From an uncultured Methanosarcinales archaeon (GTDB taxonomy: Archaea > Nanobdellota > Nanobdellia > Woesearchaeales > DSVV01), in assembly GCA_964453185.1 (NCBI GenBank), contig CAYVNN010000002.1, forward strand, positions 55,843 through 119,842: a stretch of 64,000 nucleotides of DNA, given 5' to 3'. Shown here in pieces: positions 16,662-48,111 of this stretch; position 1 is the first letter of the stretch, and each line of letters starts with the position of its first letter. The notes under the pieces were generated by a model. That model was not told the DNA's origin. It was given only the letters and a program-made list of their open reading frames with translations, and did not search any database. Position numbers and translations under genes: made by a program.

Positions 16662-17570
16662 TTAATCCCAAAGTTCAGGATTTTCATTGATTCTTACAAC
16701 TTCTGCAATGTAGTCTTGGTAATAATATGTTAAAGTCAGATCAACTTGTTTAGTATACAATGCATCTTCTTCTAACTCATCACTTCTACATCTAATAGTT
16801 ATAATGTCTTCTTCTCCAGATCTTGACATTCTTGCAACAGAAGCATCGCCTTTTGCAGTACATGTAAATCCATCTGTGTTTACTTCAAAACCCACTTGAT
16901 CATAGAGATTTGAAAAATCATCACTTAGATAAGCTTTTGCTCTTCCTGCTCCTGCATTATAGACAGGTATTTCTAAATAGATTCTTCCATTACCTGCTGG
17001 TCTTTCTGTTACTCCACCAATTTGTATTGGACCTGCTGAAGCATAGGCTGTCTTTGAACCATACACATCACAATATCGTTCATCCTTAAGATCTTCTTTA
17101 AAACAAACTCTTGGAACTGCAATTTGTGTTGTATAAGGATATGTATATTCTAATAAAATATTTGCATCATAGAATGTTCCAGTCAATCCATCATATTTTA
17201 GATCACCTAAATCTACAACATCATAATCTCCTTCTGGTAAAAATTGTGAAACCTTTTCTAATTCATCATCATTAGTTACTTCAAAACTAATTCCTGAAAA
17301 GTCTGAAGGAGAGATTCCTTTAATTTCCATATAAATTTCATTAGATAATATTGTATGTTCACCTAAATTTTCTAAGATAACAACCAAAGGGAATGTTTCA
17401 TCTTCATAAATTTCATTTGTATCTATTTGAAAACTTGCAACTAATCCATATGTTCCACCATAGTATGGACTAACTACAGCTGCATCTGTCTGTGCAGTAT
17501 TTCCACAACCTGTAGATACAATTAGAATGATAACAGCAAGCATTATTAGTAATAGATTTCTTACACGCAT
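16662..17570 (-). CDS. secreted lipoprotein (paralog 1 of 3)
   Basis: Start at the ATG at 17570 (MRVRNLLLIMLAVIILIVSTGCGN), preceded by a GGAGG RBS. The longer track ORF runs into repeat copy B. The C-terminal region is similar to the two downstream genes. Confidence 0.5.
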   Translation of the reverse strand: MRVRNLLLIMLAVIILIVSTGCGNTAQTDAAVVSPYYGGTYGLVASFQIDTNEIYEDETFPLVVILENLGEHTILSNEIYMEIKGISPSDFSGISFEVTNDDELEKVSQFLPEGDYDVVDLGDLKYDGLTGTFYDANILLEYTYPYTTQIAVPRVCFKEDLKDERYCDVYGSKTAYASAGPIQIGGVTERPAGNGRIYLEIPVYNAGAGRAKAYLSDDFSNLYDQVGFEVNTDGFTCTAKGDASVARMSRSGEEDIITIRCRSDELEEDALYTKQVDLTLTYYYQDYIAEVVRINENPELWD

Positions 17571-17774: not shown

Positions 17775-19112
17775 TCATATCGTAGCAGGTATAAACTTAC
17801 ATATTTCTGAAACACCTGTTCCCTGGATTGTCTTTCCATATATATTCAATGTTTTCAGTGTATCCATTGAAAAAGATCCACCATAAGGACATGAATCAGA
17901 TGGTAATGCACTTAATCCACAATATGGAACTGAATAAGTTGAATCACTATAACCATGAATTTCATAATTAACCAAGTCTCCTTTATTATAATTAATCTGA
18001 TGAACATTTTCACCTGCCCCACAAATATACATATTTCCATCAATATATATACAAATACAACCTTTCCATTTATTTAAATTAGCATCACTACAAGGACAAC
18101 CAGTCCCATAACCACCATCACTACTGCCGCCATCATTCGGATCATCAGTATAAACTGGACTTGATGCTTCATATCTTTCATCATCAAAAACACTTGTTAA
18201 TTCTCCACCAGCTTTATAGACACTAACCTCATGTTGAATTGTTTCAGAATATCCATACTCTAATTTAACTAAAACAGGAGTTTGATAAGCTGATTCTTCT
18301 CTCAATGTAAACTTACATTGAATAACTCCAACACCATTCACTAATTTAACTAAATTATCACCAGGGGTACATTGTGCATCCCCCAATCCTGTAATTTCCA
18401 TACTAACTTTTACATAATTCAAATCATCTTGATCAAAACTATACGGACAATTTTCAAATGCAGTTAAATCCTCTGGCTTGTAAACAATACCATTACCTTT
18501 ATTTTCAATTGTCATGATTAAATTAACTTCATTTCTTAATAATTCTGTTTGCACATTAGTAACTGCAACTGGTGCACCTTGTGAAGATAAATAAACAGGT
18601 TCAGTAGTACAAACTTCTCTCTGTTCATAATCACTATAATCATAAATCAAACAAACAACAGGATTAGCAATAGTTTCATAATTATAACATGTACTAAGTT
18701 GTATTGTTGCATCATAACTTTCTCCTAACTGAACTTCTAATGTTCCGGTCTCTTCAACCTCAACAAACTCAGAACTTCCTTCAGGTAAAAAAGGATCAAT
18801 ACCTTCTAACTCTGGCAAATGAATTTCTTCATCTTTAATTTTAATAACTTCTCTATCAAAACCAGATAATAATATCTTACCTTTTGCATCATCAAATGCC
18901 CCTTTATTACTTATCTCAATTTCTAAATTTAAATAATCATTATCATAAAATAATTCTTGTGTTGTTGCAAACTCTACCTCAATTCCATCTGTTCCAGAAC
19001 GATAATCTTCATCACCATAACCACTATTACTAAAAACACAACCTGTAGAAAATAAAACTACAATAATTAAAACAACATAAACACTTTTTCTAAACAAATT
19101 ATTTATTTTCAT
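17775..19112 (-). CDS. secreted lipoprotein (paralog 2 of 3)
   Basis: Signal peptide with an STGC lipobox-like motif. Shares SQGAPVAVT and LEYGYSETIQHEV blocks with the neighbouring genes. Confidence 0.5.
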   Translation of the reverse strand: MKINNLFRKSVYVVLIIVVLFSTGCVFSNSGYGDEDYRSGTDGIEVEFATTQELFYDNDYLNLEIEISNKGAFDDAKGKILLSGFDREVIKIKDEEIHLPELEGIDPFLPEGSSEFVEVEETGTLEVQLGESYDATIQLSTCYNYETIANPVVCLIYDYSDYEQREVCTTEPVYLSSQGAPVAVTNVQTELLRNEVNLIMTIENKGNGIVYKPEDLTAFENCPYSFDQDDLNYVKVSMEITGLGDAQCTPGDNLVKLVNGVGVIQCKFTLREESAYQTPVLVKLEYGYSETIQHEVSVYKAGGELTSVFDDERYEASSPVYTDDPNDGGSSDGGYGTGCPCSDANLNKWKGCICIYIDGNMYICGAGENVHQINYNKGDLVNYEIHGYSDSTYSVPYCGLSALPSDSCPYGGSFSMDTLKTLNIYGKTIQGTGVSEICKFIPATI

Positions 19113-19113
19113 T

Positions 19114-20385
19114 TTAATTTACATATGACTTCTCAATAACTATTTCTTTTGATATTGAATGCATATATCCATAATCAAATTCCATATAAAGTTGTGTTGA
19201 ATATGATGCTTGATCTTTTTTAATTACACCTTCTTTAACAGTACATCTTATTTTCCCTTCACCATCTGAATCTAACCTAATTGGACTTGATGTACACTCA
19301 ATTGTATCAGGATCATTATCCAATACAAACTCTTTATGAGATGTTGTATTGTATCCATTAAATCTATAGATTATATTTTCATTTGATAAAACTAATTTAT
19401 TCATAACTACCATATCATAATCATATCTATCTAAACCAATAGCTGAACATGCATCTGATGTTTTCTCACTATTAATTATACTTCCTTCTTCCATATTTTT
19501 CACAGTAATAACAAACTGTGGTCTGATATATTCTGTTCCATCTGAATCAGTGAATGGAATAATATTTGTTTCAATCTTTGTTATAGCCAGAGGAGCTCCT
19601 TGACTATTTAACATAATGTCTTCTGTATCACAAACAGGATCAAAAACAGATAAATGTCCAATATCAGTATCAAGACATACTTCTTGTTCCAATTGTGTAC
19701 TATAAGCATAACAAGCTGACGCAATAATTGCTGATTCATGTTTTTCACTTAATTGTCCAGGAGATTTTGCTCTTGCTTTGAATGTTATCATATCAACTCC
19801 ACCAGATGGATTATAAATGGATCTGGGTTCTAACATTAATACTTGTGTTTTCTCAGAGATTGTACCAGATAATAATTTCATTTTTTCCTTTTGAAAAGAA
19901 TTATAAATCCCTTCCAAATATTCCACCCCTTCAAACAATTCTTGTCTTTTATCTGAATCAGTTGTTGTTTCATACTCTTCCATTAATTCATTTATTTCTA
20001 ATTCAATTTCATTTAAATTAGAAGTAATTTGTGTTAATAAACTCAATGTCCCGGCATCATAACTTCCAACATCATCAATATCAAAACAATCATCATTATC
20101 ATCTAAGATACACATAAAATCCTCTTCAATACTTAATGATAAATAACCTGTTAAAAAGTATGCCCCAGCATTGTTAACATCAATTGAAATATCAAACTCA
20201 GTTCCTTCTAAAACTTCATCTGGCGGAACATTTTCAAAGAATTCCATTTCTAAAGAATCTGTCCCTTGAAAATATTCAGCATTTGAAATAATATAACCAT
20301 CTGTTGAACCAAACCCACCTGTACAACCAGTTATAACTAATAAAACCATTACAAACAATAATCCAAAAACAATTTCTTTTTTCAT
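19114..20385 (-). CDS. secreted lipoprotein (paralog 3 of 3)
   Basis: Signal peptide with ITGC. Shares SQGAPLAIT and EFDYGYMHSISKE blocks. Confidence 0.5.
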   Translation of the reverse strand: MKKEIVFGLLFVMVLLVITGCTGGFGSTDGYIISNAEYFQGTDSLEMEFFENVPPDEVLEGTEFDISIDVNNAGAYFLTGYLSLSIEEDFMCILDDNDDCFDIDDVGSYDAGTLSLLTQITSNLNEIELEINELMEEYETTTDSDKRQELFEGVEYLEGIYNSFQKEKMKLLSGTISEKTQVLMLEPRSIYNPSGGVDMITFKARAKSPGQLSEKHESAIIASACYAYSTQLEQEVCLDTDIGHLSVFDPVCDTEDIMLNSQGAPLAITKIETNIIPFTDSDGTEYIRPQFVITVKNMEEGSIINSEKTSDACSAIGLDRYDYDMVVMNKLVLSNENIIYRFNGYNTTSHKEFVLDNDPDTIECTSSPIRLDSDGEGKIRCTVKEGVIKKDQASYSTQLYMEFDYGYMHSISKEIVIEKSYVN

Positions 20386-20394
20386 TCTTTTACC

Positions 20395-23300
20395 TTACGA
20401 AGCCATTGAAGCAAACTGACCCAATGGTACATACTCAAATTGTACCTTTGTGTAATCAGGTAAAACAGTTCCTTCAACAGTATCTCTTTTTCTGACGTAA
20501 AATCCTTGTGAATCTTTTTCATCACACTGTCCCATTACATCATCATCTTCCCATTCAATTGTACAAAATTCTTTAAAATTACCCATATAATCTTTATAAT
20601 AAAGAAATATTTCATCATCTTCATACTTGGTCCAGATAAATCCAGTCCAAACTTCAACCTCATCTGCTCCTTCAATTAAATAATCTGAATTAATAACTGA
20701 ATATGCTAATATTTCATAATTAAAACTCATTAATTTCCCATCCTCTACCACAACATAATAACTAAATGCAGGATTATTATCAATATAAATCCATCTTTCA
20801 GAATATTCTTCTGATGTTGGAATTGTTCCTTCATAAACTGTTTCTGTTTGATTATTCGTGTAAATAAAAATCTTTAATTTCTTTGAATCATCAATACTAA
20901 TTATTAATTTAGTTCCTGATGTGTCTAAATCAATTGTTTCAGAAAAATCTTTTGTTTCACCATTAATTGTAAAACTTCCTTGTACTAAAAAGTTGTCCTC
21001 ATTTGTTTCTGATTTTAATTCTCCACTTTGCACAAGATTAAGCTCTTGAACTTTTTTATAATATGTTTCAACTAACTGAACATATAATCTAACCTGTTCA
21101 TAGTCGTCGTCATACTCACACCAATACCTTTTATCCCCTATACAATCTTGACTATCACAAAATACACCAACATATTCTCCATCTCTAATTCCACAAACAC
21201 CACCATAATATGTTGCTAACAAGTATTCTCTATTTAATTCAGGATCTTCTGAATCAAAAGGAATATTTTCATTATTTAATAAATCATACATTCTCCTTAC
21301 ACCAAACCTAATGTTTGTATCTGGATCAAATAAATCATAATCAACTATTCCCAATTCTGCAGCAATAACTGCAGCATCCTCTTCTGTTATCTGCATTAAT
21401 CCATTTGTTTCACCAAGAGGAGAAGATAATCCCACTGTTGTTGGATCATTCTTAGAACCTGCTGCAATCATTGCAATAACTAATTGTGGATCCATACCAT
21501 ACCTATCAGACCACTCTGAGATACTATTTGGACTTGAAGCATAATAAATAGTATAAATATCACTAACTAATTCATCTGGTTTTCCAGTATAAGATTCTTC
21601 TGATTTTGAATATGATGTTTCCGCATAACCTGCTGCAGTATCTGACTCAATCACCTTAACAGATGTGTCTTCAACAATTTTATAATCATACCTTGCTTTA
21701 ACAAAGAAATACTTTGTAGATATTGGTGTATTTCCTAATAGCTTATGTTCATCAACAATATCTAATCTACAATTGTATGAAACAAAATCTTCAATATCTT
21801 TGTAATGATTGGTGTTTCTTGAAGTGTCTAAATAATATGCATTATATCCATCTAACTCTTCTTGACATTTTAATAATAAGCATGCTCTCATTGTATCATC
21901 TGTAACTGCACCTTCATCTTCACATGCTCTATAGAAAGCAGTTTCATATTCTACATTACTACTTACACATCTATCCTCTGTATATTCTTTAAAATTAGTA
22001 TCTGAACAAGTATCAAGATCAAGTTCCATTGAATCTGGAATTATAACAACAATCTCTTTTATCTCTTCAATCATTCCATCCCAGTTTGTGTCAGCATCTA
22101 ATGTAATTCCTAATCTTGGTTTAACCTGATATGTTGAATCAATTCCTGTTAATGCACTATCTGGACCTATACCTAATCTAATTGGACCATTTGAATATCT
22201 TGCAACAGGATCTTTATCTTCCACTTGATACTGATCTAATAAATCAACACCATCTTTTAATGCAGAATTTAATCTATCTCTACTTGTAAAATATCTTTTA
22301 ACATAACCAATTGTTTCAAAATTAAACTTTGATTCAAATGTAACAGCATGTGAACCAGGACTTAATTTATTTTGAGGAATAGTACAATCAATTTCTTCCT
22401 GCTGCATATCATAAACTTCCATTGTTGCTGGATAAACTTCACCATAAACTTTACTTGTACCTTTTCCAGCATAACATGTTGTATTAATTTGCACCATATC
22501 ATCCAATGTTCTTGCCATTAATATTGCAAACACTGTAACTCTTTCATCTTCATAGAACTTTTCCTTTGAAGCCATAACATCTTCAATATAAACACCAAGC
22601 TGTTCTTCTTCATTCTCCTCAACCTGTCCAACATAATAGGTCGATGTGAGTTGTTTCTTTCTTATTTCCCAAATATCTCCAAACCTTGAAAATGCACCCC
22701 ATGTTGATGTAAATATTTGAGAACCACCTTCAACAAACTTATCCTTTAATACTAGAAATGCATCCCATCTTTCATAATCAGCTGTATCTAATTCTAAATC
22801 AGTAAAACCATACATTTGTCCCATACCATATGAAAGTATGATAAAGACCCACCACATAATAATTAAGAATCTTGATAACCTAATATACCATAACTTTGCT
22901 TCACTTCCTCTATAAACTGCATAGTAAATCCATGTTAACATAATAAATCCATTTGCTACAAACAAACGAATAAAATCAATAGATGCAATCATACTACTTG
23001 ATGCAACCATCCATGGAACAATAACCTCTATACAAAAACATACCAACATAATACGATACGTTTTTCCATTTCTCTCACTAGGATGAAAAATAAATAAGAT
23101 AGGCACAAGAATCATCCAAAATAAATTAAGAAAAATCCTATTTTTAATAGACAACCTTGATCCAATAACAACTGCATGATAAATACAAGCAAAAACAAAG
23201 AACCAAAATATACTAGAATTAGTTCTTCTTTCATCTTCATCTGCTCCACCTTTGAACAGATTAATGATTCCTTTACCACCATAATAAAAAGGAATAGATA

Positions 23301-23739
23301 AACCACGTGTAACAGCATTATGTGTTAAGAATTTACCAAAGCCTTTTGCTCTTTGCCATAATAAACTAGTTAATTGCTTTTTTCTATCTAACTCATCCAT
23401 TCCTTTAGCATGTCTTAATGCTTGAATCTTTGCAGTTAAATCAGAAAGATTAGCTTTATTTTCATTATGAGAATCTTTAAAATCTTTCCAAGGTTGTTGA
23501 AAAGTAGGCTTTACTGCATGTTCTTTCACATGAGGTAAGCCCAAATCTTTAGCCTTAGTCCAATTAGAATGAGCCATATCTACGGCTTCTGTTTTAGCAG
23601 CACCCCATGCCTTACCTGCTCCTGACTTAGTCTTACTCCAAGCAGCACTACTTACAGCTTTAGCTCCTGACTTAGTCTTACTCCAGGCAGCACTACCTAC
23701 AGCTTTAGCTCCTGCCTTAAATCCAGCCCATGATACCAT
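20395..23739 (-). CDS. giant (about 1114 aa) multi-TM protein with a large ectodomain containing an SLT-like (lytic transglycosylase) segment
   Basis: Start at the ATG at 23739 (MVSWAGFKAG), preceded by GAGGT. The longer ORF merely translates repeat copy C. Tandem AKAV(G/S)SAAWSKTKSG repeats are followed by about 6 TM helices. The ectodomain contains IAMIAAGSKNDPTTVGLSSPLGETNGLMQI, which resembles the SLT catalytic region but has Gly where the catalytic Glu is expected. Confidence 0.5.
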   Translation of the reverse strand: MVSWAGFKAGAKAVGSAAWSKTKSGAKAVSSAAWSKTKSGAGKAWGAAKTEAVDMAHSNWTKAKDLGLPHVKEHAVKPTFQQPWKDFKDSHNENKANLSDLTAKIQALRHAKGMDELDRKKQLTSLLWQRAKGFGKFLTHNAVTRGLSIPFYYGGKGIINLFKGGADEDERRTNSSIFWFFVFACIYHAVVIGSRLSIKNRIFLNLFWMILVPILFIFHPSERNGKTYRIMLVCFCIEVIVPWMVASSSMIASIDFIRLFVANGFIMLTWIYYAVYRGSEAKLWYIRLSRFLIIMWWVFIILSYGMGQMYGFTDLELDTADYERWDAFLVLKDKFVEGGSQIFTSTWGAFSRFGDIWEIRKKQLTSTYYVGQVEENEEEQLGVYIEDVMASKEKFYEDERVTVFAILMARTLDDMVQINTTCYAGKGTSKVYGEVYPATMEVYDMQQEEIDCTIPQNKLSPGSHAVTFESKFNFETIGYVKRYFTSRDRLNSALKDGVDLLDQYQVEDKDPVARYSNGPIRLGIGPDSALTGIDSTYQVKPRLGITLDADTNWDGMIEEIKEIVVIIPDSMELDLDTCSDTNFKEYTEDRCVSSNVEYETAFYRACEDEGAVTDDTMRACLLLKCQEELDGYNAYYLDTSRNTNHYKDIEDFVSYNCRLDIVDEHKLLGNTPISTKYFFVKARYDYKIVEDTSVKVIESDTAAGYAETSYSKSEESYTGKPDELVSDIYTIYYASSPNSISEWSDRYGMDPQLVIAMIAAGSKNDPTTVGLSSPLGETNGLMQITEEDAAVIAAELGIVDYDLFDPDTNIRFGVRRMYDLLNNENIPFDSEDPELNREYLLATYYGGVCGIRDGEYVGVFCDSQDCIGDKRYWCEYDDDYEQVRLYVQLVETYYKKVQELNLVQSGELKSETNEDNFLVQGSFTINGETKDFSETIDLDTSGTKLIISIDDSKKLKIFIYTNNQTETVYEGTIPTSEEYSERWIYIDNNPAFSYYVVVEDGKLMSFNYEILAYSVINSDYLIEGADEVEVWTGFIWTKYEDDEIFLYYKDYMGNFKEFCTIEWEDDDVMGQCDEKDSQGFYVRKRDTVEGTVLPDYTKVQFEYVPLGQFASMAS

Positions 23740-23766
23740 TATTAACCTCTTTTTTACAGCTATAAT

Positions 23767-23899: not shown

Positions 23900-24008
23900 A
23901 TTAACCTCTTTTTTAGTTTTACAACTACCTCAACTTAAATTCTAGAACTTCTTATATATAATATTTATGCATTTATGTATATAATAATTAAAACAAAAAA
24001 AGAAAATC

Positions 24009-25724
24009 TTAATACTCTTCTATCTCAACAACCAATTTTCTAATATCTAATGTTGTTAAATCTGGTTCAATCTTTATTGAATTACTTCCTTCTTCAACAT
24101 AATCAGTTATTGTTCTCATGTAATCATCACTATAAGTATCAACATATGATTTATGTCCATTAATGTAAACATGAGCTGCTTTATGTTCTGTATCATCTGC
24201 AAAATAAAGATATAATACAACTTCATAACCTGGTTTAACCTTCATCACTTCATCATATGAATCACTTCCTGTACTTGGACATTCTGAACTATAACTTCTT
24301 CCATTGCTATAATAAGTGGATGGACAATCATCACACTCATTTTCATTCAATGAAGTTTCACAAACATTTTCTAAACCATAGATTGGAACATCATTACACC
24401 AGAAATTATCTTCGTCTTTTTCAAAACAACAATCTCTGTCATAATACTCACTACACCCAGATGGACAATAATCATCATGATCATCTCCACATCTATCCTC
24501 ACATTCCTCTGGAGCATAACCATTATCATCTTCATAACCTGACACACATCTATCACATTTTGAAGTGTCTGCTTCTGTTACTGAAGCACATCTATCATCT
24601 TCGTCGTCAGGTTCAATGTCACACCAATAATTATTACTTCCTTCGAAGCAACAATCAATATCTAAATCTTCATCACATCCAACCGGACAATAATCATCAA
24701 CATCTCCACATTCTCTTTCTATTAAAAACTGTTCATGTTTGTATTCTTCTGAGAAGTAAAACAATGTTTCTGTTAAATCAAAATAATAAACAGGATAAGT
24801 TTGTTCTTTTAACTCAGTCTCCACCATTATTTGATAAATTAAATACGTTCCTTCATCTGTTTTAAAGATAACAGAATTATCACCTGCTGAAATCACACTT
24901 GGTGAAAACTCAACAATATTAATCTGACCACAATCAGGTATTGATGAATAAATATTTTCATTATTAACATAAATCTTTAAAGCTCCAACACCTCTTGGTG
25001 TACAGTCTGGGAAAAACTTCATTTTAACACTTTCAATATTAAATTTCTCAGTATCTGTAACAGTAAATGTGTTCTTACTTGATTGTTCACTAATATCTGT
25101 AACATCTCCTGTGATCTTAATACCTGTTAATTGATACTCATTTGTTGTCCAAAAAGCAAAACCAACATCACTTACTTCAAATGTTAACAAATTTTCATAT
25201 TCAAGGTTTCTATCTGATAAATCCAAAGGATCCATTATGCCAGTGACCTCATTATCAAATATTTTTTCTCCATTTAGATAAATAGACAATCTTCCTTTTG
25301 CTCTTTCTAAATTAAATGATAATAAAATATTTTCTGTATTTTCTAAGTCATCGATTGTAAAGGTTAAATTTCTAAACAATTTATCAAAAATTCCATTCTT
25401 AATATACAACGACTCTTCTGAAAAGAGTGTTTCTGCTTCTGTTACAGTATAAAGATTAACAGCCGATAATTGATGTTCATACTCACTAAATTTAAGATAA
25501 TCAATTCTTCCAGGTGATTCTTCCATTATTGTTTCATTATAAATAACAACATCACCATAATCAGTTGACCCTGAACTTCCTCCTGATGTAGATATAGATC
25601 CTGTTTCACCTAACAAATCTTGTCTAACATCTGCTGGTAAGAATAAGATATAAAGTATAAGCATACCTGCAACCAATGCAACTAGTGTAGCTGCTCCACT
25701 TGCTGTTTGACCTTTTTTAAACAT
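24009..25724 (-). CDS. pilin-like (class III signal peptide) surface protein with two Cys-rich modules
   Basis: N-terminal MFKKGQTASGAATLVALVAGMLILYILF fits the archaeal prepilin (KG|Q) class III signal. C-terminal duplicated module CGDVDDYCPVGCDEDLDIDCCFEGSNNYWCD / CGDDHDDYCPSGCSEYYDRDCCFEKDEDNFWCND. Confidence 0.55.
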   Translation of the reverse strand: MFKKGQTASGAATLVALVAGMLILYILFLPADVRQDLLGETGSISTSGGSSGSTDYGDVVIYNETIMEESPGRIDYLKFSEYEHQLSAVNLYTVTEAETLFSEESLYIKNGIFDKLFRNLTFTIDDLENTENILLSFNLERAKGRLSIYLNGEKIFDNEVTGIMDPLDLSDRNLEYENLLTFEVSDVGFAFWTTNEYQLTGIKITGDVTDISEQSSKNTFTVTDTEKFNIESVKMKFFPDCTPRGVGALKIYVNNENIYSSIPDCGQINIVEFSPSVISAGDNSVIFKTDEGTYLIYQIMVETELKEQTYPVYYFDLTETLFYFSEEYKHEQFLIERECGDVDDYCPVGCDEDLDIDCCFEGSNNYWCDIEPDDEDDRCASVTEADTSKCDRCVSGYEDDNGYAPEECEDRCGDDHDDYCPSGCSEYYDRDCCFEKDEDNFWCNDVPIYGLENVCETSLNENECDDCPSTYYSNGRSYSSECPSTGSDSYDEVMKVKPGYEVVLYLYFADDTEHKAAHVYINGHKSYVDTYSDDYMRTITDYVEEGSNSIKIEPDLTTLDIRKLVVEIEEY

Positions 25725-33531: not shown

Positions 33532-35520
33532 ATGAACTATGCTATTTTTATACCAATATTCATTGTATTGGGATTGTTATTTGCAGGTTATCTAACTATG
33601 CAGATAAATAGAGAAAAAAGAGGAAATAAGAAAATGATCGAAATTTCCGATGCTATTAAAGAAGGTGCAATGGCTTTCTTAAATAGAGAATATAAAGCTT
33701 TAATTGTTTATGCAATTATTGTAACAATTATTCTTGGAATATTCTTAAATATTCCAACAGCAATTGCATTTGTATGCGGTGCATTCTTATCTGGTTTAGC
33801 TGGATATATTGGAATGAGAATTGCAACATCTGCAAATGTAAGAACAGCAAATGCTGCTCAAACAGGATTAGGAAATGCATTAAAGATTGCATTTTCATCT
33901 GGAGCAGTTATGGGTCTATGTGTAGTAAGCTTAGGTTTACTAGGAATCTTCTTATTATATGCACAATTTCAAGACGTATCAATTTTATTTGGATTTAGTT
34001 TTGGTGCATCATCAATTGCATTGTTCGCAAGAGTTGGAGGTGGAATTTTTACAAAAGCAGCAGATGTTGGTGCTGACTTAGTAGGAAAAGTTGAAGCAGG
34101 TATTCCTGAGGACGATCCAAGAAACCCAGCAGTTATCGCTGATAACGTGGGAGATAATGTTGGAGATGTAGCAGGAATGGGCGCAGACTTGTTTGAAAGT
34201 TATGTTGGAAGTATTATTGCTGCTATGGCAATAGGAGTTGTACTTTATGGAATGGATGGATTATTACTACCATTATTAATTGCAGCATTTGGTATTGGTG
34301 CTTCTATCATTGGTAACTTCTTTGTTAAAGCTAAAGAAGATGGATCAAATATTCAAAGCGCATTAAAATACGGATTATATGTTGCAAGTGCACTTGCAAT
34401 CTTGTGTATGTATTGGTTAACAAGAACATTATTACCACTAGCAGACAGTTTTAATGTTTTCTTAGCACTTGTAGCTGGACTTATTGCAGGTATTTTAATT
34501 GGCTTATTGACAGAGTATTATACATCTGACAAATATGCACCAGTTAAAAAAATCGCAGAAAGTTCAAAAACAGGAAGTGCAACAAACATAATTCAAGGAT
34601 TAGCAGTTGGTTATGAAAGTACAGCATTACCTATTTTAGTAATTGCAATTGCAATCTATATTGCATATAATTTTGCAGGGCTTTACGGAATTGCATTAAG
34701 TGCAGTTGGTATGTTGTCTACTTTAGGAATTTCATTAGCAATTGATGCTTATGGTCCAGTAGCAGACAACGCAGGCGGTATTTCAGAAATGGCTGGACTT
34801 GGTGCACATGTTAGAAAAAGAACAGATATGTTAGATTCAGCAGGTAATACAACAGCAGCAATTGGAAAAGGTTTTGCAATTGGTTCAGCTGCATTAACCG
34901 CATTAGCATTGTTCTCAGCATTTACACAGACAGCTAACCTGTCATCAATTGACATAATGAATCCAATGGTTATAATTGGTTTATTACTAGGTGGAATGTT
35001 ACCATTCTTATTTTCATCAATGAGCATGCAAGCAGTAGGAAGAGCAGCATTCTCAATGATTGAAGAAGTAAGAAGACAATTCAAAAACATCAAAGGATTA
35101 ATGGAAGGTAAAGCAAAAGCAGATTACAAAAAATGTGTTGATATTTCAACAGCAGCTGCATTAAAAGAAATGATAATGCCAGGAGTATTAGCAATCGCAG
35201 CACCATTAATTGTTGGATTTGTTTTAGGACCAATGGGACTAGGAGGAATGTTGGCTGGATCACTAGTTTGTGGAGTAGTATTTGCAATTTCAATGGCTAA
35301 TTCAGGTGGAGCATGGGACAATGCAAAGAAATACATTGAAGCAGGACATTATGGTGGAAAGGGAAGTGATGCACATAAAGCAGCGGTTGTCGGCGACACA
35401 GTAGGTGACCCAAAAAAAGATACAAGTTCTCCGTCAATCAACATATTAATCAAGTTGATGACAATAATATCTTTAGTCTTCTTACCACTAATCCTAAAGT
35501 ACGGAGGACTTTTGGTATAA
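33532..35520 (+). CDS. hppA: membrane-bound proton/sodium-translocating pyrophosphatase
   Basis: [40 protein letters not shown] and the C-terminal [14 protein letters not shown] are diagnostic V-PPase motifs. 662 aa, about 16 TM helices. Confidence 0.9.
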
Positions 35521-36573
35521 AATTTCTTTTTTTATTTTCTTTCTTAATTCTTGCCACAAAGGTTCTACTTGATTCCATAATTTATCTTTATTCTCTAAAA
35601 TAAATTGCATTTTCCTAATTTTTTCACTATGTTTACTTAATGGCAACATTTTTTTAATTAAATTGTGGGTATCTTTTTTTCTATTAAGTGTAACATTATA
35701 GATATTAAAATTAAATTGTCCAGAAGGAGATCTGTCACCGTTCTTATTTTCTAAACGAAATAATGGATGAAATCTTTTTGATTTTAATTTATCTTTAATC
35801 TGTTCCAATATCCTTTTATCTCCTGTCCTTAATCTAAAAACATATCTAAAATGCTTATCATGACTTTTATTTATATTCCAATTAGATTCACAATCTGCAT
35901 ATGCTGTTAAAAATTGGTAAAATAATTCATTATTTTCTAAAATCCAAGAAGGGATTTTATTAGGTTTTTCGACGAGAAAATCAAATGACTCATGTAAATC
36001 AACATAAATAAACCATTCATCATTTCTATCCTTATGTCGAGAATAATATTTCCTAATTTCTCCATATTTCTTAAATGAATCATTCAATAGATCAATTTGA
36101 GCATTATGTGTCGTACTAGTCTGTATTCTAATAGATTTTCTTGCCCGTTTTGCATAAAAATCTCCTGCTCTTAATCCCAATAAAAATGCTTTTTTGTTAA
36201 GATCACCACAAAATGGTTTTTTAAATTTTTTAGTTAATGCCTGAGAAACAGTTTTTCTTTTTATTCCATAATTTTCTAACTTTTTTCTAACAGTTCTACC
36301 AAATTTAATACCAAATTTCTTTGCAATCTCTCTTGAACTTAATCTTTTATTCCAATATAGATCTTCCAAAACAGTTTTTGGAATATGAATTTTCTTTCTA
36401 TAAGCAGGTCTTCTCTTAATATCAAACTTACATAACCAATAGTGTATGTTTGAACCATTACAACCAAATTTCTTTCCAATCTGATTTAATGATAGTTTTT
36501 TGTCTATGTAAAGCTCTTTCAATTTTTCTTTAGTAAATTTTAATCCTTTTTTCATTTTAATCATTTCACTCAA
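35494..36573 (-). CDS. free-standing homing-endonuclease-like protein: two NUMOD1-type HTH repeats + LAGLIDADG domain
   Basis: Repeats [20 protein letters not shown] and [20 protein letters not shown] (NUMOD1-like). LAGLIDADG-like [14 protein letters not shown] and [13 protein letters not shown]. Its 3' end overlaps the 3' end of hppA by 27 nt on the opposite strand. Confidence 0.55.
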
Positions 36574-36710: not shown

Positions 36711-36756
36711 TTATTTACCACCAAAAAGTAATGTCAAAACAAAACATTTATAAATG
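36711..36756 (+). promoter_or_regulatory. conserved upstream element + BRE/TATA (TTATTTACCACCAAAAAGTAATGTCAAAACAAAACATTTATAAATG) for the SLT gene
   Basis: About 88% identical to 45361..45406, upstream of the cyclase gene. TTTATAA TATA box at 36747-36754, roughly 40 nt before the ATG. Confidence 0.5.
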
Positions 36757-36791
36757 AAATTCTATTACCTTACTCAATCGAGGGACAATAT

Positions 36792-38159
36792 ATGAACAGA
36801 AGAACATTATTAGGATTATTAGGAGGAGCTGCATTAAGCTTAGCTGTACCAAGAATGGGCCTAGGTTCTGATCCACAAGATTTCACAATCAATTATGGAA
36901 CATTTGGTTTACATGACAGACAAACAGCTTTCTCATTATGTGATATGATTCAAGCAGAAGGTTCTGATTTTGATGATATAAAAGTTATTGAATGGGAACA
37001 AGGAAGTGAAAAAAGATACTCTGTCGCAATAGATGTAACTGGAACATTTACAGATGTTAGAGACAGAACAAATAATGACGAAGAATCATTAGCACAATTA
37101 ATTGACATGCACAATCCAGAAGGACATGACTTAAGTTTTTTACCTAGTTCTAGATATGATGGAAGAGACGTATACAAAGATGGAAGAGAAATAGTTAGTG
37201 ATTTACAACCAGTACCAACAAGACCACCAACAGGAAGAGTTCTTTACACAGATTTTAGAGATCCAGAATTCGAAAGACAAGTAGAACAAAGATTAACAAA
37301 CATTAGACCAGGTGGATCAAGACATGAAAAAATTACAAAAGGTATCAAAAGAGGATGGAAATATAAAGCATTAATCAGAGATACTGTTATTGCAAAAGGA
37401 CTTGATCCAGAATATGCTGATTTATTTTTCGCATTAATGATTCAAGAATCACTAGGAAATACAAGAGCAAGATCAAGAGCAGGTGCTGCAGGATTATTTC
37501 AAATCATGCCTGGCACAGGAAAAAAGGATCTTGGAATGACTATGAACCAATTCGTAGATTTAAGATATTCAATCAGAACATCAATAGAAAAAGGAATTCA
37601 ATATTTAGAAAAACCATGCCTTACACAAGCACAAGGAGATATAAGAATCGCTCTTGCTGGATATAATGGTGGCCCATATGGACTTGGCGATAAAATAAAA
37701 GATTTTAGAAGAAGAGGAAAATCAATATCATACAATAGCATAATGGCTGGAAGAAATAGTGAAAATAGTGGATACGCACCAGGAATTTATGCAATTCAAG
37801 CATATGTTACAGAACTAAGTTTACCTGATGAAAATGAAGTTGACTTCAGAAAAACTTGGGAAATAGCTACTATAACTCCAGGAAGTAGAGGATTAAAAAT
37901 GAGACTACCAGATGGAACAGAAGTTAATTTTACAGACAGAGCAGGAACAACAAATCTAGACAGATTAGCACAATCATACAATGCTCATGTCAAAAATGAA
38001 ACAGGTTTTGACATGAATACATCATATTTTAATGGAACAATTGGAAGAGAATTTAAAGACATGAATGCCCATGTTAAAAAAGATGGCACATTAGTTTCAG
38101 GAGTACCATATGTAATTTGGGTTCCTAAACCAGATGCTATTCAACAATTAACTAGATAA
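36792..38159 (+). CDS. Tat-secreted lytic transglycosylase (SLT domain) protein
   Basis: Tat-like signal MNRRTLLGLLGGAALSLAVP. ALMIQESLGNTRARSRAGAAGLFQIMPGTG is the SLT catalytic ES...GLxQ signature. The catalytic domain also carries GYNGGPYGL. Confidence 0.75.
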   Translation: MNRRTLLGLLGGAALSLAVPRMGLGSDPQDFTINYGTFGLHDRQTAFSLCDMIQAEGSDFDDIKVIEWEQGSEKRYSVAIDVTGTFTDVRDRTNNDEESLAQLIDMHNPEGHDLSFLPSSRYDGRDVYKDGREIVSDLQPVPTRPPTGRVLYTDFRDPEFERQVEQRLTNIRPGGSRHEKITKGIKRGWKYKALIRDTVIAKGLDPEYADLFFALMIQESLGNTRARSRAGAAGLFQIMPGTGKKDLGMTMNQFVDLRYSIRTSIEKGIQYLEKPCLTQAQGDIRIALAGYNGGPYGLGDKIKDFRRRGKSISYNSIMAGRNSENSGYAPGIYAIQAYVTELSLPDENEVDFRKTWEIATITPGSRGLKMRLPDGTEVNFTDRAGTTNLDRLAQSYNAHVKNETGFDMNTSYFNGTIGREFKDMNAHVKKDGTLVSGVPYVIWVPKPDAIQQLTR

Positions 38160-39260
38160 CTATTTAACTAACTTTAAAACATCTCTAGCTATCATTAATT
38201 CTTCGTTTGTATTGATAACCATTGCTTTAACTTTTGATTCTGGTGTTGTTATAAACAATTTATTCTGTTTATTATTTTTCTTATCTATCTCTAAACCTAA
38301 ATATTCAAAGTTCTTTAACACAGTATCTCTAATATACCATGCATTCTCTCCAATACCTGCTGTAAAAACAATAACATCAACACCACCAAGAACTGCAATA
38401 TATGCACCAATATATTTTATCAACCTATGACAATAAACCTTCATTGCTAATCTTGCATTCTTATCCTTACACCCATCCAATTCTCTCATATCATTACTTA
38501 TTCCAGAAATTCCTTTTAATCCTGAATCAAAATTTAACATATCAATTACTTCATTAACATCTTTTTTCTCTTGTTTAACTAAGTATTGAATTATTCCAGC
38601 ATCAATATCTCCACTTCTTGTTCCCATTACTAAACCTTCTACAGGTGTAAACCCCATTGATGTTTCTCTTGACTTACAACTATCAATTGCACAAACACTA
38701 CTTCCATTACCTAAATGACAACATACTACTTTTAATTTCTCATCACCTAATATCCTCACAATCTCACTAACAATATATCTATAACTAATTCCATGAAAAC
38801 CATATCTTTTAATCTTATGTTTTTCACTTAATTCAAAAGGAATTGCATAAGTACTTGCTTCTTTTTTAATTGAAGTATGAAATGAAGTATCAAAAACAGC
38901 AACTTGTTTTATATTTGGTAATAACTCAATACATGCTTTTATTCCAGTTAAATTATGTGGATTATGAAGAGGAGCCAATGGAACACAATCTTCAATCTTC
39001 TTAATAACATCATCTTTAATAATAACAGACTTAGTTATATCTCCACCATGAACAACCCTGTGTCCGATAGCATTAATATCTTCTAAACATTTCAACTTTT
39101 TACTTTGAATTAATTTATCTAAAGCCATTTGAATAGCTACTTTATGATTCTTAACTTTTTCTCCAACTCTTTCAATTAATCCTCTAACTACTTCTTTATC
39201 ATATCTAAATAAAGCATATTTTAAAGAACTTGAACCACAATTTAAAACTAAAATTTCCAT
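38160..39260 (-). CDS. ackA: acetate (or short-chain acyl) kinase
   Basis: LVLNCGSSSLKY, VVHGG, FDTSFH, HLGNGSS, GTRSGDID motifs. Its start overlaps the pta stop (TAATG). Confidence 0.8.
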   Translation of the reverse strand: MEILVLNCGSSSLKYALFRYDKEVVRGLIERVGEKVKNHKVAIQMALDKLIQSKKLKCLEDINAIGHRVVHGGDITKSVIIKDDVIKKIEDCVPLAPLHNPHNLTGIKACIELLPNIKQVAVFDTSFHTSIKKEASTYAIPFELSEKHKIKRYGFHGISYRYIVSEIVRILGDEKLKVVCCHLGNGSSVCAIDSCKSRETSMGFTPVEGLVMGTRSGDIDAGIIQYLVKQEKKDVNEVIDMLNFDSGLKGISGISNDMRELDGCKDKNARLAMKVYCHRLIKYIGAYIAVLGGVDVIVFTAGIGENAWYIRDTVLKNFEYLGLEIDKKNNKQNKLFITTPESKVKAMVINTNEELMIARDVLKLVK

Positions 39261-40243
39261 TAAAAATCACCTTGTGCTTGTACAGTTGTAATTGCAACAA
39301 GATCAACAATATCTTGTACATCACAACCACGACTTAAATCATTAATTGGTTTTCTTAAACCTTGTAAAATTGGACCAACAGCTCTTGCTTTTGCTAATCT
39401 TTGCACTAACTTATACGCAACATTACCAGAATTAAGATCAGGAAAGATTAACACATTTGCTTTTCCCATGATTTTACTTTTAGGAAACTTAATCTTACAA
39501 ACTTCAGGTACTAATGCGGCATCAACCTGCATCTCTCCTTCTATCAATAGTTTCGGATTCAAGTGTTTCGCAATCTCTGTTGCTTCTTTTACTTTATCAA
39601 CTAAAGGATGCTTAGCCGATCCGGCTGTTGAAAAAGATAACATTGCAATCTTTGGTTTAATTCCAAAAGCCTTTGCTGTATTTGCTGTGTCTAAAGCAAT
39701 ATCAGCCAAGTCTTTTGCATCAGGTTCAATAACAACTGCAGAATCTGCAAAGATTAAAAATCTATCATGTAAACCCATTAAAAATAATCCACTAACTTTT
39801 CTAAACATCTTCTTTGTTCCAATAATTTGAACAGCTGCTCTGATTGTATCTGCAGTTGGATGGGTTGCTCCAGCAACTAAACCATCTGCAACATTATTTT
39901 TGACAAGCATTGTTCCAAAATAAATAGGATCAACCATTACTTGTTTAGCTTTTTTCAATGTCATACCTTTTGCTTTCCTTAATTCATAATATTCCTTAAC
40001 ATACTTATCAAAATCAACATATTCCTTTGGATTAAGGATAATAACATTATCTAAACAAATCTTATTCTTCTTAACATTCTTCAAAATATCATCTGCTTTT
40101 CCAATAAGAATAACCTTTGCTATCTTTTGTTTAGTAATCTTAACAGCAGCTTTCAATATCCTTAGATCATTAGACTCAGGCAAAACAATAGTCTTAACAT
40201 CTTTCTTAGCTTTATCCTTAATTTCTTTTAATAACTTTAACAT
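39260..40243 (-). CDS. pta: phosphate acetyltransferase (PTA_PTB family)
   Basis: C-terminal QGLRKPINDLSRGCDVQDIVDLVAITTVQAQ and GPILQG-type motifs; pta-ackA gene order. Confidence 0.8.
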   Translation of the reverse strand: MLKLLKEIKDKAKKDVKTIVLPESNDLRILKAAVKITKQKIAKVILIGKADDILKNVKKNKICLDNVIILNPKEYVDFDKYVKEYYELRKAKGMTLKKAKQVMVDPIYFGTMLVKNNVADGLVAGATHPTADTIRAAVQIIGTKKMFRKVSGLFLMGLHDRFLIFADSAVVIEPDAKDLADIALDTANTAKAFGIKPKIAMLSFSTAGSAKHPLVDKVKEATEIAKHLNPKLLIEGEMQVDAALVPEVCKIKFPKSKIMGKANVLIFPDLNSGNVAYKLVQRLAKARAVGPILQGLRKPINDLSRGCDVQDIVDLVAITTVQAQGDF

Positions 40244-45427: not shown

Positions 45428-46120
45428 ATGAACACTAAAACAGATGAAAATACTAAGACAAAAGTCGTTATGTTTGTAGATATTACTAATTATTCTAAAA
45501 AAACATCAAATATAAGCAAACAAGACCTAATCGAATTACATGACATATTTGATGGCTTCTGTATACCTAATTTTGAAGCATTTACAGGCAGAATCATCAA
45601 GAAAATAGGAGATGCATTCTTAGTAACCTTTGAGAATCCAACAGACGCAGTAATGTGCGGAATTGAATTACAGAAATCATTTCACAATCACAATAAAAAA
45701 ATAAGAAGAACAAGACCTAAAAATCAAATCAGAGTTAGAGTCGCACTCCACATGGGAGAAGTTACATATAGAAAAGGAGATATCTATGGTGACACAGTTA
45801 ACACTACAGCTCGTCTAGAAGCCTTATGTAAACCAGGACAAGTAGTATTTAGTGGATCAGTATATTCTGCAATGGAAAGAAACGGAATAGGTATTGTCCA
45901 TTTAGGTTTAAGAAAATTAAAAGGAATGAAATATCCAGTACAAGCATTTAGAATCAGAACCAAAGTAGACGACAGAATCATCAAGATTAAGAAAAGAAAG
46001 AAATCATATACAAAATTTAAACAAAGAATCAGTGCCAGTATATTATTACTTATTTCACTAATAGCTGGAGCAGCTTCTGTTGCTATTATTCTATATTATC
46101 TATTTAGTACAGTTTTATAA
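45428..46120 (+). CDS. class III nucleotidyl (adenylate/guanylate-type) cyclase with a C-terminal TM anchor
   Basis: VVMFVDITNYS (metal-binding Asp), IGDAFLVTF, GDTVNTTARLE and a C-terminal ILLLISLIAGAASVAIILYYLF helix. Confidence 0.7.
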   Translation: MNTKTDENTKTKVVMFVDITNYSKKTSNISKQDLIELHDIFDGFCIPNFEAFTGRIIKKIGDAFLVTFENPTDAVMCGIELQKSFHNHNKKIRRTRPKNQIRVRVALHMGEVTYRKGDIYGDTVNTTARLEALCKPGQVVFSGSVYSAMERNGIGIVHLGLRKLKGMKYPVQAFRIRTKVDDRIIKIKKRKKSYTKFKQRISASILLLISLIAGAASVAIILYYLFSTVL

Positions 46121-47786: not shown

Positions 47787-48111
47787 ATTGTAGGGAAGTA
47801 CTTAACTATCGGTGTAAACTGAGGAAAGTCCGTCCACCGTGAAAGACCAGTCTTGGAAGGGACATGGAGAAATTCATGGCAACCACTCAGAAACGAAACC
47901 ACTTGTACTGGGAATGATAGAGTGAAGCAAATGGCGACATTTGTTAGTATCCTCTTGACTATCTTTACAAGAAAGGATGAAACGGTGAGCCCTGGTTGGT
48001 GCAAGGCAGTAACTTTATGTTACATCAGTCCGCTAAGTTAAATGTTAAGGGGTCTGTTTGCATTCAAGGTGCATAGACTCAACAGAAGACGGCTTACCTC
48101 TTCTCTACAAT
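47787..48111 (+). ncRNA. rnpB: RNase P RNA (archaeal type A-like)
   Basis: GAGGAAAGTCCG (P4 5' strand / CR-I) near the 5' end and CAACAGAAGACGGCTTACC (CR-V / P4 3' strand) near the 3' end. P1 pairing of ATTGTAGGGAAG (47787-47798) with CTTCTCTACAAT (48100-48111). Length about 325 nt. Confidence 0.85.

What the first reader, a model, noticed from the sequence alone, without database searches (positions are those of the whole stretch)
36792..38159. Tat-secreted SLT lytic transglycosylase in an archaeon, and a second SLT-like segment in a giant membrane protein
The ES...GLFQIMPGTG motif is textbook SLT. Archaea lack murein, so a secreted murein-cleaving enzyme implies interaction with bacteria, either prey/host or competitors. 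Alternatively it may act on another glycan such as pseudomurein or host envelope. The 20395..23739 protein carries a second SLT-like stretch (SPLGETNGLMQI), but with Gly at the expected catalytic Glu, so it may be a binding module.
Basis: partly seen in the sequence, partly recalled or inferred. Interest (0 to 1): 0.6.

Follow-up and report, generated by a model that had tools for sequence, protein, structure and literature searches.

The report
Bacterial-type wall-cutting enzyme in DPANN archaeon
A small low-GC (DPANN/Woesearchaeota-like) archaeon carries one intact, exported, bacterial-type cell-wall-cutting enzyme and one large membrane protein whose copy of the same domain has lost its catalytic residue; enzymes of this kind in these archaea are already reported in the literature, so this is a solid but largely expected case.

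Summary
Both observations are real. ORF 36792-38159(+) (455 aa) matches Pfam SLT (61 bits, E=8e-17). It keeps every invariant residue of family-1 lytic transglycosylases (E219-S220, GLFQ, GYNGG), and its model superposes best on P. aeruginosa MltD. It has a Tat-like leader. The host is an archaeon: archaeal RNase P RNA, RFC, Pelota and Nre lie on the same contig, third-position GC matches the neighbours, and the locus is identical in five assemblies. Only the SLT core has relatives, which are bacterial MltD-like; the flanking 110-aa regions are orphans among 1.84 billion proteins.

The giant protein 20395-23739(-) also has a true SLT-like domain (40 bits). The catalytic Glu is Gly here and T/K/L/I/V in all 15 relatives checked, with no conserved substitute acid. 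It is therefore probably a non-catalytic glycan-binding module. It sits in a conserved five-gene surface operon: a pilin-like protein, the giant, and three paralogous lipoproteins.

SLT/GH23 proteins in Woese-/Pacearchaeota, read as anti-bacterial or attachment factors, have been reported since 2013-2015. Tat-secreted archaeal peptidoglycan hydrolases were shown to kill bacteria in 2025. Verdict: new member of a known kind. The dead-SLT operon is the only fresh point. Tat export and the target remain inferred.

The parts
36792..38159 (+). 455-aa exported SLT-domain protein (family-1 lytic transglycosylase, MltD-like core)
   Evidence: ORF. Pfam SLT 61.3 bits. NCBIfam MltD, Slt and flagellar-LT partial hits. 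Identical protein and DNA in 5 independent assemblies.
36747..36785 (+). Putative expression signals: TATA-like TTTATAAA (36747-36754) and GAGGG Shine-Dalgarno-like site (36781-36785)
   Evidence: Read directly from the sequence; inference only.
36792..36866 (+). Tat-like signal peptide, residues 1-25 (N-R-R-T-L-L; Gly/Ala-rich h-region; Arg21; G-L-G|S cleavage-type site)
   Evidence: Sequence. Hydrophobicity compared with 8 other leaders in the window. Low pLDDT consistent with a leader.
36894..37112 (+). Orphan N-terminal region (residues 35-107); model shows beta-alpha-beta-beta plus a helix, with no homologues
   Evidence: No relatives in 1.84e9 representatives. No Pfam hit at E<=10. pLDDT 62-75.
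37254..37826 (+). SLT catalytic domain (residues 155-345; Pfam core 37419-37721)
   Evidence: pLDDT 85-96. Foldseek best hit MltD 8rhf, E=2e-10. phmmer against PDB: MltD 8rhe, E=1.3e-7.
37446..37448 (+). Codon of catalytic Glu219 (E-S motif)
   Evidence: Invariant column in alignment A2. Aligned to the ES motif of MltD and Slt.
37827..38156 (+). Orphan C-terminal region (residues 346-455)
   Evidence: No relatives. No Pfam hit. pLDDT mostly below 50.
20395..23739 (-). Giant membrane protein B (1114 aa): cytoplasmic Lys-rich N-terminus, about 5 TM helices, Cys-rich beta-sandwich ectodomain, SLT-like domain, C-terminal beta domain
   Evidence: ORF. 12 homologues at 30-49% identity. AF2 model. 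Ig-like/adhesin-type Foldseek hits only.
22810..23220 (-). Transmembrane block (residues 174-310) with conserved SERNG and DF(V/I)RLY motifs
   Evidence: Hydropathy. Invariant E222 and R223.
21025..21579 (-). SLT-like helical domain (residues 721-905; Pfam core 21208-21522)
   Evidence: Pfam SLT 40.1 bits. Family profile against MltC/MltE/Slt, E about 2e-7. hhalign against the 455-aa protein's SLT family, probability 95.4%.
21457..21459 (-). Gly761 codon at the position of the catalytic Glu
   Evidence: Column is G,L,T,K,T,K,T,T,I,T,T,T in 12 family members, and G, T, V in three further GTDB loci. No acidic column in the domain is invariant; the most conserved is D/E in 10 of 12.
24009..25724 (-). 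Operon gene A (571 aa): pilin-like (class III-type) N-terminal anchor KKGQ|TASGAATLVALVAGMLILYILF, with a Cys-rich repeat ectodomain
   Evidence: Alignment A4, 58% identity, 20+ invariant Cys. Colinear in 6 loci. No Pfam, PDB or PHROG hits.
19114..20385 (-). Operon gene C (423 aa), lipobox lipoprotein
   Evidence: N-terminus LLVITGC. Paralogue of D and E by hhalign. Syntenic.
17775..19112 (-). Operon gene D (445 aa), lipobox lipoprotein
16662..17570 (-). Operon gene E (about 302 aa from the ATG at 17570), lipobox lipoprotein; the most conserved member (57-76% identity)

Best explanation
The window comes from a low-GC DPANN archaeon of the Woesearchaeota type that carries two different descendants of the bacterial SLT (GH23 family-1 lytic transglycosylase) domain.

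(1) The 455-aa protein is an intact enzyme. Its leader, most likely a Tat leader, takes it across the cytoplasmic membrane. Outside the cell, the MltD-like domain uses Glu219 as the single acid/base to cleave the MurNAc-beta-1,4-GlcNAc bond of peptidoglycan, forming 1,6-anhydro-MurNAc ends. The window shows no sign that the archaeon makes murein, so the substrate would be the wall of neighbouring bacteria. The purpose could be attack, access to a host, or scavenging of wall debris. The SLT core was acquired from bacteria and has since been fully adapted to the host's codon usage. The flanking N- and C-terminal regions are lineage-specific inventions.

(2) The giant membrane protein presents an SLT-derived domain outside the cell. 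This domain keeps the groove-forming residues (IA..S, GLM, TNI.G, YY.G) but has no catalytic acid in any relative. It is therefore a pseudo-enzyme that can bind a GlcNAc/MurNAc-type glycan strand but not cut it. It works within a conserved five-gene surface complex: a pilin-like protein, the giant, and three paralogous lipoproteins.

Shown here: the domain identities, the residues, the synteny and the archaeal host. Inferred: the export route, the substrate and the biological role.
For: - SLT identity.
- Catalytic and motif residues are invariant in the 455-aa protein.
- The SLT core is modelled confidently, and its best structural match is MltD 8rhf, E=2e-10.
- Nearest relatives are bacterial SLT+LysM (MltD-type) proteins: source names, and P0027 lies between mnmE and a sigma-54 gene.
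- Archaeal host and no misassembly: RNase P RNA; archaeal genes; GC3 of 0.134, within the range of the neighbouring genes; 100% identical locus in 5 assemblies.
- Tat-like leader features.
- The giant family lacks the Glu in 12 + 3 relatives and has no conserved alternative acid.
- E-to-Q mutants of MltE and Slt are deposited as inactive, and MltE-E64Q still binds chitopentaose (PDB titles).
- The ectodomain has 8 invariant Cys and Ig-like adhesin-type folds.
- The operon is conserved in all 9 loci, as far as each contig extends.
- Literature precedent: PMC8204110, PMC9723730, PMC12352652.
Against: - There is no biochemical evidence for either protein.
- No tatA or tatC lies in the window, and the rest of the genome could not be examined. 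If Tat is absent, the leader would have to work through Sec.
- The 455-aa protein has no recognisable wall-binding module (no LysM, no SPOR), unlike its bacterial relatives.
- It is found in a single clonal population, so there is no comparative evidence of selection.
- The giant's SLT-like region is modelled at only pLDDT 50-70, and Foldseek on the whole model did not return SLT structures.
- GH23 domains can also act on or bind chitin-like GlcNAc polymers, so the ligand could be non-murein.
- A 64-kb window cannot prove that the organism makes no murein-like polymer.
Confidence: 0.65

Rival explanations
1. The SLT gene belongs to a bacterium and appears in an archaeal context only through misassembly or mis-binning.
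For: The SLT core is bacterial in type. The leader and amino-acid composition (G+A+R+P 28.5%) look unlike most AT-rich archaeal genes in the window.
Against: The gene lies on one contig between H+-PPase and ackA-pta and about 10 kb from the archaeal RNase P RNA. Its GC3 of 0.134 is indistinguishable from the neighbours. The same 5-7 kb arrangement is 99.98-100% identical in five independent assemblies from JGI, ENA and Logan. Several other ORFs in the window have similar composition.
Confidence: 0.02
2. The 455-aa protein is a viral or provirus lysin, or a virion-associated lytic protein, rather than a cellular secreted enzyme.
For: PHROG endolysin and lytic-tail-protein profiles score as well as Pfam SLT (65 and 64 bits). 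BFVD Foldseek hits reach E=4e-9. The adjacent gene 35494-36573 resembles a homing-endonuclease-type mobile gene.
Against: There are no capsid, terminase, portal or integrase genes nearby; the neighbours are H+-PPase, ackA, pta and a DHH phosphoesterase. There is no relative in IMG/VR. The cellular enzyme MltD is the best structural match. A Tat/Sec-type leader is typical of a cellular exoprotein. An archaeal virus would have no use for a murein lysin.
Confidence: 0.04
3. The enzyme acts on a non-murein glycan. Candidates are chitin or chito-oligosaccharides, a GlcNAc-rich glycan of the organism's own envelope or of an archaeal host, or pseudomurein. On this reading it serves nutrition or envelope remodelling rather than anti-bacterial action.
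For: MltD and MltE crystal structures contain bound chito-oligosaccharides (8rhi and 4hjy titles). From my own knowledge, GH23 includes chitinases. The cultivated DPANN known so far have archaeal hosts (abstract of PMC8204110). The protein lacks LysM or other murein-targeting modules.
Against: All residues typical of murein-specific family-1 lytic transglycosylases are kept. From established knowledge, the lytic transglycosylase mechanism needs the MurNAc C6-OH, and pseudomurein's beta-1,3 talosaminuronic linkage is not a substrate of lysozyme-fold enzymes.
Confidence: 0.15
4. The SLT-like domain of the giant protein is still catalytic and uses a different acidic residue, or it is simply a decaying relic with no ligand.
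For: The window protein has acidic residues near the groove (GETNG, ITEED). The domain is less conserved than proteins A and E of the operon.
Against: No acidic column is invariant in the domain; the best is D/E in 10 of 12 sequences, far from the groove motif. The GETNG loop is deleted in most relatives. The domain is retained with conserved IA..S, GL(M/L), TNI.G and YY.G motifs across sequences only 21-53% identical, which argues against neutral decay.
Confidence: 0.1

Closest known systems
MltD-type family-1 lytic transglycosylases (P. aeruginosa MltD, PDB 8rhe/8rhf/8rhi); more broadly Slt70, MltC and MltE (GH23, Pfam PF01464)
   Same: The 455-aa protein shares the catalytic domain fold, the E-S catalytic motif, the GL(M/F)Q motif and the (A/G)YN.G motif. 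MltD is its best sequence and structure match.
   Different: It has no LysM repeats and no lipobox. It has orphan N- and C-terminal regions and a Tat-like leader, and it is encoded by an archaeon. Identity to MltD is only about 20-35% in the core.
Murein-like lytic transglycosylase (GH23) proteins reported in Woesearchaeota and Pacearchaeota (Castelle 2021 fam00969, PMC8204110; Vigneron 2022, PMC9723730; ODZ DPANN, PMC10936187)
   Same: Same archaeal group, same Pfam domain and a predicted extracellular location. The proposed role of binding or degrading bacterial walls also matches.
   Different: Those reports describe 'large' proteins assumed to be degradative. Here the large protein lacks the catalytic Glu in every relative, and the intact enzyme is a small orphan protein. 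Whether the giant belongs to fam00969 itself could not be tested, because no sequences were available.
Tat-secreted archaeal peptidoglycan hydrolases Woldo and Danwoldo of Halogranum salarium (PMC12352652)
   Same: These are archaeal, horizontally acquired, exported peptidoglycan hydrolases directed at bacteria, with Tat signal peptides.
   Different: They have different catalytic domains (zoocin-A-type peptidase and glucosaminidase, not SLT) and carry PG_binding_1 targeting domains. They come from a haloarchaeon, where Tat is the main export route, and their activity has been shown experimentally.
Inactive E-to-Q mutants of lytic transglycosylases (MltE E64Q, PDB 6ghy/4hjy; Slt E503Q, PDB 6fc4/6fcq)
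   Same: Like the giant's domain, they keep the SLT fold and groove without the catalytic acid. MltE-E64Q still binds a glycan chain (PDB titles).
   Different: Those are laboratory mutants. The giant's substitution is natural and family-wide (G/T/K/L/I/V), and the domain is embedded in a 1114-aa membrane protein.
Specialised SLT proteins of bacterial envelope-spanning machines (VirB1, FlgJ-type; B. burgdorferi BB0259 flagellar assembly lytic transglycosylase, NF047373)
   Same: BB0259 is the best NCBIfam hit for the giant (E=3e-9). An SLT domain is combined with a surface-apparatus gene cluster that includes a pilin-like protein.
   Different: The operon has no ATPase and no secretin or platform genes. 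The organism has no murein layer to penetrate, and the catalytic Glu is absent.

Membership tests
Pfam PF01464 SLT / GH23 family-1 lytic transglycosylase: 455-aa protein | Profile match above the curated gathering score | tested here: met
   61.3 bits against a cut-off of 21.3, E=7.9e-17.
Pfam PF01464 SLT / GH23 family-1 lytic transglycosylase: 455-aa protein | Catalytic Glu in the E-S motif | tested here: met
   E219-S220. E219 is invariant in A2 and aligns to the ES motif of MltD and Slt.
Pfam PF01464 SLT / GH23 family-1 lytic transglycosylase: 455-aa protein | G-L-M-Q and A-Y-N-x-G substrate-groove motifs | tested here: met
   GLFQ at 234-237 and GYNGG at 290-294. G234, Q237, Y291, N292 and G294 are invariant.
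Pfam PF01464 SLT / GH23 family-1 lytic transglycosylase: 455-aa protein | Lysozyme-like all-alpha catalytic fold | tested here: met
   AF2 pLDDT 85-96 over residues 155-345. Foldseek finds MltD at E=2e-10, plus Slt, MltE and MltF.
Pfam PF01464 SLT / GH23 family-1 lytic transglycosylase: 455-aa protein | Non-hydrolytic cleavage of MurNAc-GlcNAc giving 1,6-anhydro-MurNAc | not testable with these tools
   Needs an enzyme assay.
Pfam PF01464 SLT / GH23 family-1 lytic transglycosylase: giant protein | Profile match above the curated gathering score | tested here: met
   40.1 bits against a cut-off of 21.3. Family profile against MltC/MltE, E about 2e-7. hhalign probability 95.4%.
Pfam PF01464 SLT / GH23 family-1 lytic transglycosylase: giant protein | Catalytic Glu in the E-S motif | tested here: not met
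   Gly761 in the window protein; L/T/K/I/V in 14 of the 15 relatives checked and Gly again in L010; none has Glu. The protein is homologous to the family but should not be filed as an active lytic transglycosylase.
Pfam PF01464 SLT / GH23 family-1 lytic transglycosylase: giant protein | Lysozyme-like fold | tested here: inconclusive
   Helical as expected, but pLDDT is only 50-70. The whole-model Foldseek search returned only Ig-like hits.
Tat (twin-arginine) export substrates | Twin-arginine motif (S/T-R-R-x-F-L-K-like) in the n-region | tested here: met
   N2-R3-R4-T5-L6-L7.
Tat (twin-arginine) export substrates | Weakly hydrophobic h-region and a basic 'Sec-avoidance' residue in the c-region | tested here: met
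   Maximum 12-residue KD of 2.03, against 2.77-3.77 for 8 other leaders in the window; Arg21 precedes G-L-G|S. No dedicated predictor (SignalP or TatP) was available.
Tat (twin-arginine) export substrates | TatA/TatC translocase encoded by the organism | not testable with these tools
   Neither is present among the annotated ORFs of the 64-kb window.
Large extracellular LT-domain proteins of Pace-/Woesearchaeota (Castelle 2021, fam00969) | Large, extracellular, SLT-domain protein restricted to these DPANN lineages | tested here: inconclusive
   The description fits: 1114 aa, ectodomain with invariant Cys, and relatives labelled Ca. Woesearchaeota. However, the giant's own family is small (13 clusters in 5.8e9 proteins), and no fam00969 sequences were available to compare.

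The most novel reading that the evidence does not exclude
The conserved five-gene operon encodes a previously undescribed archaeal surface apparatus. Its components are a pilin-like Cys-rich protein A, the giant membrane protein B with a catalytically dead SLT domain, and three paralogous lipoproteins C, D and E. The dead SLT domain would be a peptidoglycan-strand receptor that docks these Woesearchaeota onto bacterial cells. In this one species the separately acquired, active, exported SLT enzyme would then open the wall locally. That would be a concrete, testable molecular basis for cross-domain (archaeon-on-bacterium) episymbiosis or predation.
Probability: 0.2. Interest if true: 0.75.

Novelty: new member of a known kind. 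Interest (0 to 1): 0.35.

Why it matters
Whether DPANN archaea parasitise or prey on bacteria is an open question, and exported murein-directed proteins are the main genomic argument for it. This locus gives two clean reagents for testing that idea. The first is a small, intact SLT enzyme with all catalytic residues, which should be easy to express and assay, with an E219Q control. The second is a naturally inactive SLT domain that can be tested for wall binding. The result also adds a caution for metagenomic surveys. Counting Pfam SLT or CAZy GH23 hits as 'peptidoglycan degradation' over-calls activity: the large protein here passes the Pfam threshold yet lacks the catalytic residue in every relative.

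Tried and rejected
- **Contamination or mis-binning:** rejected.
- **Viral origin:** PHROG and BFVD hits cover the SLT domain only, there is no IMG/VR relative, and no phage genes lie nearby.
- **Orthologues of the whole 455-aa protein:** an exhaustive phmmer search of 1.84e9 representatives found only SLT-core matches of 64 bits or less. P0011, of similar length, shares only the SLT domain.
- **SPOR-like idea for the N-terminal beta-alpha-beta-beta unit:** there is no Pfam hit even at E<=10, so it is not claimed.
- **Function of operon proteins A, C, D, E and the giant's TM and beta domains:** Pfam, PHROG and PDB sequence or profile searches were all empty apart from SLT. Foldseek gave only generic Ig-like and adhesin folds.
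- **Widening the giant family:** a profile search returned the same 13 proteins.
- **Tat machinery:** not in the window, and a literature search on Tat in Woesearchaeota was uninformative.
- **Technical failures:** the afdb50 fold library was unavailable. Protein comparison on two alignments failed and was replaced by a local hhalign run. Rinke 2013 is not held in the library, so it is cited only through Castelle 2021.
Full report
**What is there.** The window is AT-rich (about 30% GC) and archaeal. It carries an archaeal RNase P RNA at 47790-48108 (127.6 bits). It also carries an RFC small subunit interrupted by an intein, a Pelota/aRF1-family protein and Nre. Relatives of one of its proteins are labelled Candidatus Woesearchaeota. 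The organism is therefore a DPANN-type archaeon.

**The 455-aa protein.** ORF 36792-38159(+) encodes 455 aa. It matches Pfam SLT at 61.3 bits (E=7.9e-17, cut-off 21.3). It also gives partial matches to the NCBIfam models for MltD, Slt and MltC.
- In an alignment with its nearest relatives, the invariant columns are exactly the family-1 lytic transglycosylase signature: E219, S228, A232, G234, Q237, M239, T242, A289, Y291, N292 and G294.
- AlphaFold2 models residues 155-345 at pLDDT 85-96.
- Foldseek returns P. aeruginosa MltD as the best match (8rhf, E=2e-10), followed by Slt, MltE and MltF. phmmer against the PDB agrees (8rhe, E=1.3e-7).

**Is the gene really archaeal?**
- Its third-position GC (0.134) falls inside the range of its neighbours.
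- It sits between the H+-pyrophosphatase gene and ackA-pta.
- The same 5-7 kb arrangement is 99.98-100% identical at the DNA level in five independent assemblies.
- Upstream there is a TATA-like TTTATAAA and a GAGGG site.

**Origin of the gene.**
- An exhaustive HMMER scan of 1.84 billion representatives found 4849 hits, but all of them to residues of about 140-345 only, and the best scored just 64 bits.
- The N-terminal (about 30-140) and C-terminal (about 345-455) regions are orphans, with no Pfam hit at E<=10.
- The nearest relatives are bacterial SLT+LysM (MltD-type) proteins. P0027, for example, lies next to mnmE and a sigma-54 gene.
- The core was therefore acquired from bacteria and has since been fully ameliorated. 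The architecture is specific to this single population.
- A viral source is not supported. PHROG and BFVD matches cover only the SLT domain, there is no IMG/VR relative, and no phage genes are nearby.

**Export.**
- The leader MNRRTLLGLLGGAALSLAVPRMGLG|S has a twin arginine, and its h-region hydrophobicity (KD 2.03) is well below that of eight other exported proteins in the window (2.77-3.77).
- It has Arg21 in the c-region and small residues at positions -3 and -1.
- These are the accepted hallmarks of Tat signals.
'Tat-secreted' therefore remains a well-founded inference, not a result.

**The giant protein.** ORF 20395-23739(-) encodes 1114 aa, or 1130 aa from an upstream GTG. It also passes the Pfam SLT cut-off (40.1 bits).
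- A profile of this region from 12 family members hits MltC, MltE and Slt in the PDB (E about 2e-7). The family consensus IAqtS lies over MltC's IMQIES and over MltE-E64Q's IAIQS.
- A profile-profile alignment against the 455-aa protein's SLT family gives 95.4% probability over 142 columns. Gly761 lies opposite Glu219, GLMQ opposite GLFQ, and TYYGG opposite GYNGG.
- The catalytic-equivalent column reads G,L,T,K,T,K,T,T,I,T,T,T in the 12 members. In three more GTDB loci it is G, T and V.
- No acidic column in the domain is invariant.
- Lytic transglycosylases depend on this single Glu; E-to-Q mutants are deposited as inactive, and one is deposited with a glycan chain bound (PDB titles).
- The rest of the protein consists of a Lys-rich N-terminus, about five TM helices with conserved polar motifs, a beta-sandwich ectodomain with eight invariant Cys, and a C-terminal beta domain. 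Foldseek finds only generic Ig-like and adhesin folds.

**Genomic context of the giant.** It is the second gene of a five-gene operon.
- Gene A is 571 aa, with a pilin-like KKGQ|hydrophobic N-terminus and Cys-rich repeats.
- Gene B is the giant.
- Genes C, D and E are lipobox lipoproteins and are paralogues of one another (hhalign probability 93.6-99.4%).
- The order A-B-C-D-E is kept in all nine related loci as far as the contigs reach. A divergent Pelota gene lies upstream in 6 of 6 loci.
- The family is small: 13 clusters among 5.8 billion proteins and six GTDB species.
- None of A, C, D or E has a Pfam, PHROG or PDB relative.

**Comparison with what is known.** Murein-like lytic transglycosylase (GH23) proteins in Woese- and Pacearchaeota have been noted since Rinke 2013 and Castelle 2015 (both cited in PMC8204110). 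They have been interpreted as bacteria-binding or bacteria-degrading factors (PMC8204110) or as predation factors (PMC9723730). They have also been recorded in other DPANN surveys (PMC10936187, PMC11537232). Archaeal peptidoglycan hydrolases with Tat signals were shown experimentally to kill bacteria in 2025 (PMC12352652).

Two points appear new:
- The intact enzyme here is a small orphan-architecture protein rather than one of the 'large' proteins described in the literature.
- The large SLT-bearing protein of this clade is catalytically dead in every relative and belongs to a conserved surface operon.

**Verdict.** Novelty is 'new member of a known kind' and interest is modest at 0.35. The most novel reading still open, at a probability of about 0.2, is that the operon is a peptidoglycan-docking apparatus for life on bacteria.

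Noticed in passing
window 16662-25724 (-); also L006, L008, L009, L010, L011 and partial L012-L015: A conserved five-gene operon: pilin-like Cys-rich protein A, giant SLT-like membrane protein B, and three paralogous lipoproteins C, D and E. None has an annotated relative. A divergent Pelota gene always lies upstream.
   Followed up: yes
window 12336-14909 (+): The replication factor C small subunit is interrupted by an intein with a LAGLIDADG homing-endonuclease domain (Pfam Intein_splicing and LAGLIDADG_3).
   Followed up: no
window 35494-36573 (-): The gene directly upstream of the SLT gene has two repeated HTH units that match the N-terminal DNA-binding part of PHROG 'HNH endonuclease' families. 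It also has LAGLIDADG-like motifs ([19 protein letters not shown]). It may be a free-standing homing-endonuclease-type mobile gene.
   Followed up: partly
window 38160-40243 (-): A bacterial-type acetate kinase and phosphotransacetylase pair (ackA-pta) lies immediately downstream of the SLT gene. This puts a second likely bacterial acquisition in the same neighbourhood.
   Followed up: no
window 23620-23715 (-), giant residues about 9-40: The N-terminus of the giant protein has a species-specific tandem 15-aa repeat, GAKAV(G/S)SAAWSKTKS x2. It is absent from all homologues.
   Followed up: no
window 8313-12227 (-): A 1304-aa ORF has no Pfam or PHROG match at all and an unusual composition for this genome (GC1 0.55, GC3 0.085, G+A+R+P 27%).
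   Followed up: no
whole window: ORFs fall into two amino-acid composition classes: K+I+N of 10-17% versus 22-35%. Third-position GC is uniformly low in both. The Lys/Ile/Asn-poor class includes the SLT gene, the operon genes and several proteins with no hits.
   Followed up: no
window 45428-46120 (+): A class III adenylate/guanylate cyclase catalytic domain (PF00211, E=3.6e-18) occurs in this small archaeal genome.
   Followed up: no
window 1-64000: ARAGORN found no tRNA gene in 64 kb. Archaeal RNase P RNA is present at 47790-48108.
   Followed up: partly
L010, L011, L013 (GTDB records CAYVNO01, CAYLMH01, CAZKVI01): Three MAGs carrying the operon are titled 'uncultured Methanosarcinales archaeon'. 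Their operon proteins are 30-76% identical to those of the window organism, and the other GTDB loci carrying the operon are labelled Woesearchaeota, so the record titles look like mislabels.
   Followed up: no
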